Of a stretch of DNA of 64,000 nt, positions 11,364-11,570 are shown in pieces (within the stretch, counting starts at the first letter, position 1; every line of letters starts with the position of its first letter). A program made the translations under genes and the position numbers. Where the stretch lies: positions 10,012-74,011 of the forward strand of contig CAXHJY010000376.1 in NCBI GenBank assembly GCA_964016885.1, given 5' to 3'. The notes beneath the pieces were generated by a model that worked only from the letters and a program-made list of their open reading frames with translations, did no database searches and was not told the origin of the DNA. This DNA comes from Eledone cirrhosa (taxonomy: Eukaryota).

Positions 11364-11570
11364 ACGCTGTAGTGTGGCCGTGTAGGCAACACGGTAAAAA
11401 CCTCCTAGCCCCACACTGTAGGTGTGGTTGGTGTTGGGGGGGGCATCCAGCTGTGGGAAGCCTGCCAGAGGGTCCTATGCGAGCAAGACAATCACTCTTG
11501 CCTCAAGTGGGACTACCCCCGTCCGGGCCCATGCAGGCGTGGAGCACGGACGTTGAACGTTGATGATGAT
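11364..11570 (+). mobile_element. 3' terminal fragment of RTE family A, A>G hypermutated
   Basis: Colinear with the family A 3' end beginning at 56051 and ends in the (GAT)n tail; 17 A>G out of 20 differences. Confidence 0.92.

What the first reader, a model, noticed from the sequence alone, without database searches (positions are those of the whole stretch)
11364..11570. A>G hypermutated RTE copy: candidate ADAR-edited RNA fixed in the genome
Seen: against sibling 3' ends (56051 onward, and the reverse copies at 30475, 49592 and 62009, which agree closely with each other) this copy has 20 substitutions in about 200 bp, 17 of them A>G on the element's sense strand. They cluster in runs: TAAAT>TAGGT, TTAGGAAGGG>TTGGGGGGGG, TAGAAAAC>TGGGAAGC, CCAAACC>CCGGGCC. 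The 5' neighbours are mostly A/U. Established: ADAR hyper-editing gives clustered A-to-I read as G by RT, and coleoid cephalopods edit heavily. Inference: an edited retro-transcript was integrated, giving a route from RNA editing to heritable DNA change. Inverted RTE copies such as those in this window could supply the dsRNA.
Basis: partly seen in the sequence, partly recalled or inferred. Interest (0 to 1): 0.85.

Follow-up and report, generated by a model that had tools for sequence, protein, structure and literature searches.

The report
RNA edits copied into germline DNA
A 3.3-kb stretch sits at three places in this animal genome, each copy with its own set of one-stranded A-to-G changes, most likely because three separately ADAR-edited RNA molecules were reverse-transcribed and inserted, which would turn transient RNA edits into inherited DNA sequence.

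Summary
In detail: 17 of 21 differences from sibling RTE 3' ends are A>G. The 207-bp piece is only the middle of a ~3.3-kb insert (window 9255-12567 plus tail): SINE-like element, TA microsatellites, two hairpin repeats, RTE 3' end, second SINE-like element.

An unedited version lies on C3. Two more edited copies lie on C13 and C22, with different 5' ends and private edits. Edits fall in hairpin stems (25 of 64 A) and not outside them (0 of 55), avoid 5' G, and come with no indels.

Two motif scans found at least 10 further hyperedited repeats. For one, an exact 369-bp match with 55 A>G sits in contigs of three public short-read runs at low depth, so the class is not an assembly artefact. The window's own G's were not seen in raw reads.

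Best reading: ADAR-hyperedited read-through RNAs were retroposed by RTE-type machinery. The carrier is the downstream SINE-like 3' end, and the dsRNA partner lay at the donor locus, not in this window. The scan noted similar L1 and ERV cases in other genomes. My searches found printed precedent only for retroviruses.

The parts
9255..9823 (+). SINE-like element, variant 'B', lacking its first ~30 nt; 5' end of the insert
   Evidence: The same rare variant precedes hairpin 1 in the C22 copy (2 substitutions and one 4-nt indel over 448 nt). Outside the window the variant was seen at 2 of 48 element loci.
9824..10463 (+). TA/TG microsatellite, part of the copied RNA
   Evidence: Shares rare interruptions with the matching tract in the C22 copy.
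10464..10660 (+). Hairpin repeat 1; stem 10464-10579 edited on both arms
   Evidence: 10 of 10 differences from C3 are A>G; 10 of 39 A in the stem, 0 of 22 outside. Against C22: 7 shared, 3 and 7 private edits.
10661..11160 (+). TA microsatellite with excess G
   Evidence: G at 96 of 250 purine positions against 50 of 237 at C3.
11161..11352 (+). Hairpin repeat 2 (multi-copy family); stem 11246-11345 edited on both arms
   Evidence: 15 of 25 A in the stem, 0 of 33 outside; family hits; fold.
11361..11568 (+).
   Evidence: 17 A>G and 1 A>C against C3. One of the 17 (11552) is probably a C3-private change, because the family has G there.
11569..12019 (+). TA microsatellite with molecule-specific edits
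   Evidence: In the last 134 nt all 14 variable sites are a G in one copy only: 4 in the window, 5 in C13, 5 in C22.
12020..12567 (+). SINE-like element 'A', nearly unedited; 3' end of all three edited copies and inferred priming end
   Evidence: 1 A>G and 1 C>G against C3. Its last 34 nt match the 3' end of a second RTE-like LINE at 28 positions.
12568..13060 (+). (TA/TG)n tail, different in each copy; flanks diverge beyond it
   Evidence: No target-site duplication could be read, because both junctions lie in microsatellite.
49977..53129 (-). Context: uninterrupted 1050-aa endonuclease plus reverse transcriptase frame of the RTE-type family
   Evidence: RVT_1 E=4e-31, Exo_endo_phos E=3e-9, PHD just under its cut-off.

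Best explanation
The window holds one of three genomic copies of a ~3.3-kb composite sequence, each carrying its own one-stranded A>G cluster, most likely written by ADAR on three separate RNA molecules that were then retroposed into the germline. Steps: (1) Shown: an unedited version exists at C3:374.566 Mb, and edited versions sit at C403, C13 and C22 with unrelated flanks. (2) Inferred: a donor locus, probably another allele of the C3 locus bearing SINE-B, is transcribed through its hairpins, microsatellites, RTE piece and SINE-A. (3) Shown pattern, inferred enzyme: edits fall in fold-back stems, self-complementary UA repeats and the RTE piece, and avoid 5' G, as ADAR does. (4) Inferred: the RTE piece paired with an inverted RTE copy upstream on the same long transcript, while the SINEs had no inverted partner and stayed unedited. 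(5) Inferred: an RTE-type reverse transcriptase primed at the SINE-A tail, read inosine as G and inserted variably 5'-truncated cDNAs into TA microsatellites. It is most likely a by-product of repeat editing plus active retroposition, not a selected function.
For: Spectrum against C3: window 43 A>G of 45 changes, C13 43 of 46, C22 33 of 35 (plus 14 of 14 in its hairpin 1), no gaps. Stem against non-stem: 25/64 vs 0/55, p=2e-8. In 13 pooled segments, 5' G sites were edited 46/289 against 527/1205 for other neighbours, p=8e-20, and 3' G 145/305, p=3e-4; this is the ADAR motif in PMC4365171 (passages). Private edits occur in each copy. All three copies end at SINE-A and begin at different points. 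Within 374554-374580 kb of C3, all 3 SINE ends are on + and 5 inverted RTE-family motifs lie upstream, one 198/211 identical at 3.9 kb. Antisense-edited RTE pieces have a same-strand retroelement 3' end within 2.7 kb in 4 of 6 cases against 3 of 36 unedited ones, p=0.004. A triple A>G motif has 6 hits and the matched triple C>T motif has 0. The hyperedited copy L164 is present exactly (369 bp, 55 A>G) in three runs of one sample at depth 3-6. The C22 copy is interrupted by unedited sequence.
Against: The window's own G's were not seen in raw reads. The exact donor is not in the assembly: C3 lacks SINE-B and differs at 4 sites and one microsatellite block, so the partner argument rests on a stand-in. 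If the RNA began at SINE-B, as two 5' ends inside it suggest, the upstream inverted RTEs would not be on the same molecule; pairing in trans or later trimming would be needed, and no ribozyme match was found. Inside the RTE piece the window's 16 G sites are nested in C13's (16 of 16) and C22's (15 of 16). 5' G avoidance is not significant in C13 alone (p=0.31). No target-site duplication could be read. No RNA data were examined, and ADAR itself was not tested. The kind of the three positive runs is not on record.
Confidence: 0.85

Rival explanations
1. Assembly artefact: RNA-derived reads or systematic base-calling errors put G into otherwise unedited duplicates.
For: C403 is a 74-kb unplaced, microsatellite-rich contig. 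The window's own G's were not checked in raw reads.
Against: Two sister copies lie on chromosome-scale contigs with private patterns while C3 is clean. There are no indels in 1,153 aligned non-microsatellite bases. Edited antisense pieces are tied to a downstream carrier. L164 is reproduced exactly in three short-read runs whose size and depth ratio look like genomic DNA.
Confidence: 0.05
2. Serial amplification: one edited ancestor was fixed, then re-transcribed, re-edited and re-inserted, so shared G's are inherited rather than independent.
For: Nested pattern in the RTE piece: GGG 15, AGG 13, AGA 9, AAG 4, GGA 1, AAA 12 of 54 sites. The three copies share non-A>G differences from C3.
Against: The window has private G's absent from both sisters in the microsatellite (4) and absent from C22 in hairpin 1 (3), so it is not their parent. 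An unseen, lightly edited intermediate cannot be excluded; it would still need ADAR and reverse transcription.
Confidence: 0.06
3. In-place change of DNA: unedited duplicates arose first and were then altered by deamination in RNA:DNA hybrids or by repair templated on edited RNA.
For: Both routes are proposed in print (PMC10209271, passages).
Against: Edits track RNA fold-back stems on both arms and stop at the carrier element. The C3 locus is untouched. The copies have the variable 5' ends and private tails of retroposition.
Confidence: 0.03
4. One reading: the 207-nt RTE 3' end was itself the retroposed RNA, edited by pairing with the inverted RTE copies of this window.
For: RTE-ended hyperedited copies do exist elsewhere: L164, L162, L197.
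Against: Here the upstream junction, both flanking tracts and SINE-A are shared with C3 and are edited too.
Confidence: 0.01

Closest known systems
[quoted passage not shown]
   Same: Clustered A>G, up to about half of the A's, in an inverted-repeat region of an RNA that is reverse-transcribed.
   Different: Those are exogenous retroviruses. Here the RNA is a host read-through transcript of non-LTR repeats, copied to several chromosomal loci.
APOBEC 'DNA editing' of LTR retrotransposons (PMC4866542 and PMC2873906, passages)
   Same: A deaminase scar fixed in single retroelement copies, strand-biased and clustered.
   Different: G>A made on cDNA by vertebrate APOBECs; invertebrates served as the negative control there. 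Here the change is A>G, follows RNA structure and includes passenger sequence.
Hyper-edited RNA in repeats (PMC4365171, passages; squid repeat editing, PMC9068888, passages)
   Same: Same neighbour motif, and an inverted partner within about 10 kb.
   Different: Described in RNA reads only; here it stands in the genome assembly.
LINE/SINE transduction (recalled) and bipartite non-autonomous RTE elements (PMC5786205, passages; PMC6007223, abstract)
   Same: A short element with a LINE-like 3' tail and microsatellite end terminates a longer copied unit with variable 5' ends.
   Different: The cargo carries a per-molecule editing record. A LINE-derived 5' part of the short element was not tested.

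Membership tests
ADAR hyper-editing signature | Clustered A>G on one strand, other changes rare | tested here: met
   43 of 45 against C3, no T>C
ADAR hyper-editing signature | G depleted 5', enriched 3' of edited A | tested here: met
   Pooled p=8e-20 and 3e-4; window alone 4/31 vs 38/101, p=0.014; C13 alone not significant
ADAR hyper-editing signature | Confined to double-stranded RNA | tested here: met
   Predicted stems 25/64, outside 0/55; the partner for the RTE piece is only inferred
ADAR hyper-editing signature | Same sites edited in RNA of the donor locus; dependence on ADAR | not testable with these tools
   No RNA holder listed
Target-primed retroposition with transduction | Copies at unlinked loci sharing a 3' end, with variable 5' ends and private tails | tested here: met
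   C403, C13, C22
Target-primed retroposition with transduction | Target-site duplication or empty allele | tested here: inconclusive
   Junctions lie in microsatellite; no empty allele among the 40 scored hits of one flank search
Target-primed retroposition with transduction | Identified donor locus | tested here: inconclusive
   C3 is unedited and near-identical but lacks SINE-B
RTE-clade LINE | Single ORF with AP-type endonuclease and RT, 3' microsatellite tail | tested here: met
   1050-aa frame with both domains; (GAT)n tail
RTE-clade LINE | Placement in the RTE clade on an RT tree | not tested
tRNA-derived SINE (the ~600-nt carrier) | tRNA or other small-RNA head | tested here: not met
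   No tRNA and no Rfam match at gathering score; a decayed head could be missed
Non-autonomous LINE-dependent element (the carrier) | 3' end shared with an autonomous LINE | tested here: met
   28 of 34 nt match the 3' end of a second RTE-like LINE
APOBEC-edited retroelement | G>A on the sense strand | tested here: not met
   No G>A against C3

The most novel reading that the evidence does not exclude
Editing followed by retroposition is a standing germline mutation route in this lineage. SINE- and RTE-ended read-through RNAs carry ADAR edits in any passenger sequence back into DNA, reshape TA microsatellites toward TG on one strand, and leave a dated, single-molecule record of germline editing. 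Edited exonic sequence could be hard-wired the same way.
Probability: 0.35. Interest if true: 0.92.

Novelty: new variant of a known kind. Interest (0 to 1): 0.8.

Why it matters
RNA editing is normally treated as non-heritable, and a route from edited RNA to A>G change in DNA has been proposed but argued indirectly (PMC10209271, passages). Here three copies of one RNA, a near-donor sequence and at least ten other loci make that route countable from a genome alone. It shows that ADAR and a retroposition machine likely act on the same RNAs in germline cells. It means such copies look far older than they are when dated by divergence, and that some 'edited' RNA reads may be transcribed from G-containing DNA. 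The lower bound is about 1 in 10,000 family copies, so it is a minor mutation source unless passenger sequence adds much more.

Tried and rejected
Haplotig reading: I first took C403 for an allele of C3. Rejected, because collinearity is limited to about 10.4-12.6 kb within 130 kb of C3 and further copies exist.

SINE-A diagnostic motif: 12 hits, only 3 of them carry the composite, so it marks a small subfamily and not the donor.

Public runs for the window's edited stretch: best share 0.18 of 33 words, no RNA holder listed. The RAD-seq run X21 did not cover the edited part of L164.

Flank search for an empty site returned only repeat copies.

Rfam over 9200-12600 and over a full carrier head gave only sub-threshold matches, mostly to microsatellite. 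The carrier head folds no better than shuffles (z=-0.59). A self-cleaving 5' end is therefore unsupported.

Motif scans are noisy. 12 of 22 sense hits were not strongly edited. Of 27 antisense hits, 3 were strong, 3 borderline and 11 had too few relatives in my local library to score. L198's downstream RTE looks like a later insertion and L201's SINE lacks its 3' end; both were counted as misses. L116 was left out of the carrier test because it was found through the SINE.

The window's tail is not G-richer than C3's (50/246 vs 77/250), which is against editing as the general source of tail G's.

Carmi et al. 2011 was not held. No supplements were read.

Full report
OBSERVATION. The window is C403, a 74-kb unplaced contig of a 3.0-Gb assembly. 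Sixteen other family copies from fetched regions have at most 2 A>G each. No scored genomic hit exceeds 91% identity (40 of 1,038 candidates scored).

THE UNIT IS LARGER. One hit, C3:374.566 Mb, shares the junctions and private substitutions but has A where the window has G. Outside microsatellites the window differs from C3 by 10 A>G in hairpin 1, 32 A>G and 1 A>C in hairpin 2 plus the RTE piece, and 1 A>G and 1 C>G in the 548-nt element that follows, with no gaps. The microsatellites between them are G-richer than at C3 (96/250 vs 50/237; 81/222 vs 52/190). Collinearity with C3 ends on both sides, so C403 is not an allele of C3.

THREE EDITED COPIES. The hairpin-RTE junction motif occurs 3 times in the genome: C3, C403 and C13. 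A search with the downstream element added C22. C13 carries 41 A>G in 228 nt and starts at the window's 11341. C22 carries 32 in 178 nt of the RTE piece and 14 in hairpin 1, and unedited unrelated sequence stands in place of its middle. All three end at the same SINE-like element with different tails and flanks. C403 and C22 also share an upstream SINE variant and the tract after it, which C3 lacks. The copied RNA thus ran from about 9255 to 12567, and the true donor is probably an unassembled allele or sister of C3.

INDEPENDENT MOLECULES. In the last 134 nt before SINE-A, all 14 variable sites are a G private to one copy (4, 5, 5). In hairpin 1, C403 and C22 share 7 edits and have 3 and 7 of their own. 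Against this, the window's edits in the RTE piece are nested in those of the sisters. Hot sites explain that, but so would an unseen edited intermediate.

ADAR SIGNATURE. Both arms of both hairpins are edited: 25 of 64 A in the long stems and 0 of 55 in the adjoining parts of the same elements. Over 13 hyperedited segments, 588 of 681 substitutions are A>G and 11 are T>C. These segments were picked by A>G motifs and bounded by eye, so that ratio is partly circular. The neighbour bias is much less so: 5' G 0.16, C 0.35, U 0.43, A 0.53; 3' G 0.48. This matches the motif in PMC4365171 (passages).

WHY THE RTE PIECE AND NOT THE SINE. Around C3, all 3 SINE 3' ends face the same way, while 5 inverted RTE-family motifs lie within 12 kb upstream, one 198/211 identical at 3.9 kb. 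A long transcript would pair the RTE piece and leave the SINEs single. This is inferred from a stand-in donor. It sits awkwardly with two 5' ends inside SINE-B, one only about 30 nt from its start.

GENERALITY. The unedited 23-mer occurs 107,413 times. Its doubly edited form has 22 hits, of which 10 have at least 23 A>G and at most 4 T>C in the hit segment; 3 of these are the copies above. The antisense form has 27 hits: 3 strong, 3 borderline, 11 unscorable. A triple A>G motif has 6 hits and its triple C>T control none. If edits enter DNA by retroposition, antisense-edited RTE pieces need another carrier downstream. Four of 6 have a same-strand 3' end within 2.7 kb, against 3 of 36 unedited pieces (p=0.004); for the 3 strong cases it is 3 of 3 (p=0.002). 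L197 holds an antisense RTE piece joined to a sense RTE, with both arms edited.

ARTEFACT TEST. I laid four public runs on the edited part of L164. Runs X2, X3 and X4, one sample, each hold a 369-nt contig identical to it at depth 5.7, 3.9 and 3.1, beside depths above 100,000 for family words. That span has 55 A>G among 112 A sites. One RNA molecule's pattern would not recur exactly in three runs, and 1.4 Gb of contigs per run looks like whole-genome DNA, but the run type is not on record. This validates the class. The window's own G's remain unseen in raw reads.

MACHINERY. The family has an uninterrupted 1050-aa endonuclease-RT frame in this window. The carrier has no tRNA head, and its last 34 nt match at 28 positions the end of a second LINE whose protein is 27% identical to the first over 192 aa. 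It resembles bipartite non-autonomous RTE elements (PMC5786205, passages), but that was not tested. Active RTEs with germline polymorphism are reported in octopus (PMC9115989, passages), and repeat-directed editing in squid tissues (PMC9068888, passages).

WHAT IS KNOWN. A-to-G hypermutation is described for two avian retroviruses (PMC12925331, passages). Deaminase scars in genomic retroelements are described for APOBEC G>A, with invertebrates as negative control (PMC4866542, PMC2873906, passages). An edited-RNA-to-DNA route is proposed in PMC10209271 (passages). A recent octopus repeat annotation has no occurrence of 'editing' (PMC13282606). Passages of PMC5974252 and PMC3941102 showed no such case. 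Search listings showed no report of ADAR-hyperedited host RNA retroposed by non-LTR elements; the library lacks most subscription papers, and Carmi 2011 was not held. This scan noted a single L1 case and an ERV case in other genomes, which I did not check.

VERDICT. Real, and larger than reported. ADAR-edited read-through RNA retroposed into the germline, confidence 0.85; a new variant of a known kind; interest 0.8.

Noticed in passing
window 49977-53129 (-): Uninterrupted 1050-aa endonuclease-RT frame with a PHD-like finger: a possibly competent copy of the RTE-type family.
   Followed up: partly
L135 (C265:103.3-103.9 kb): A single SINE-like copy with the 5' diagnostics of SINE-B and the 3' diagnostics of SINE-A; possibly a template jump or recombination product of the same donor RNA.
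   Followed up: no
L100 (C2:264750343, -): SINE copy with the same 5' start as C3's SINE-A, about 50 nt of upstream microsatellite and duplicated-looking flanks; possibly a short unedited copy from the C3-type allele.
   Followed up: no
L140/L141 (C1:5.7337-5.7353 Mb): Antisense RTE pieces with A>G directly upstream of a SINE, preceded by a sense RTE piece with T>C: edits on both strands side by side, suggesting two rounds or an inversion.
   Followed up: partly
L198 (C9:206.9 kb) and L201 (C13:26.32 Mb): Two loci share the same lightly edited antisense segment and following tract: a second sister set, one later interrupted by an RTE.
   Followed up: partly
all fetched loci: Microsatellite tails after the SINE-like 3' end have more G than C on the sense strand in 65 of 71 cases (overlapping loci counted more than once).
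   Followed up: partly
window 2786-5347 (-): 3' part of another LINE family (CR1/L2-like by recall), 95.6% identical to a fragment upstream of the C3 locus; a different copy.
   Followed up: no
window 14650-15620: Degenerate AT-rich tandem repeat of roughly 110-170 nt units (self-matches).
   Followed up: no
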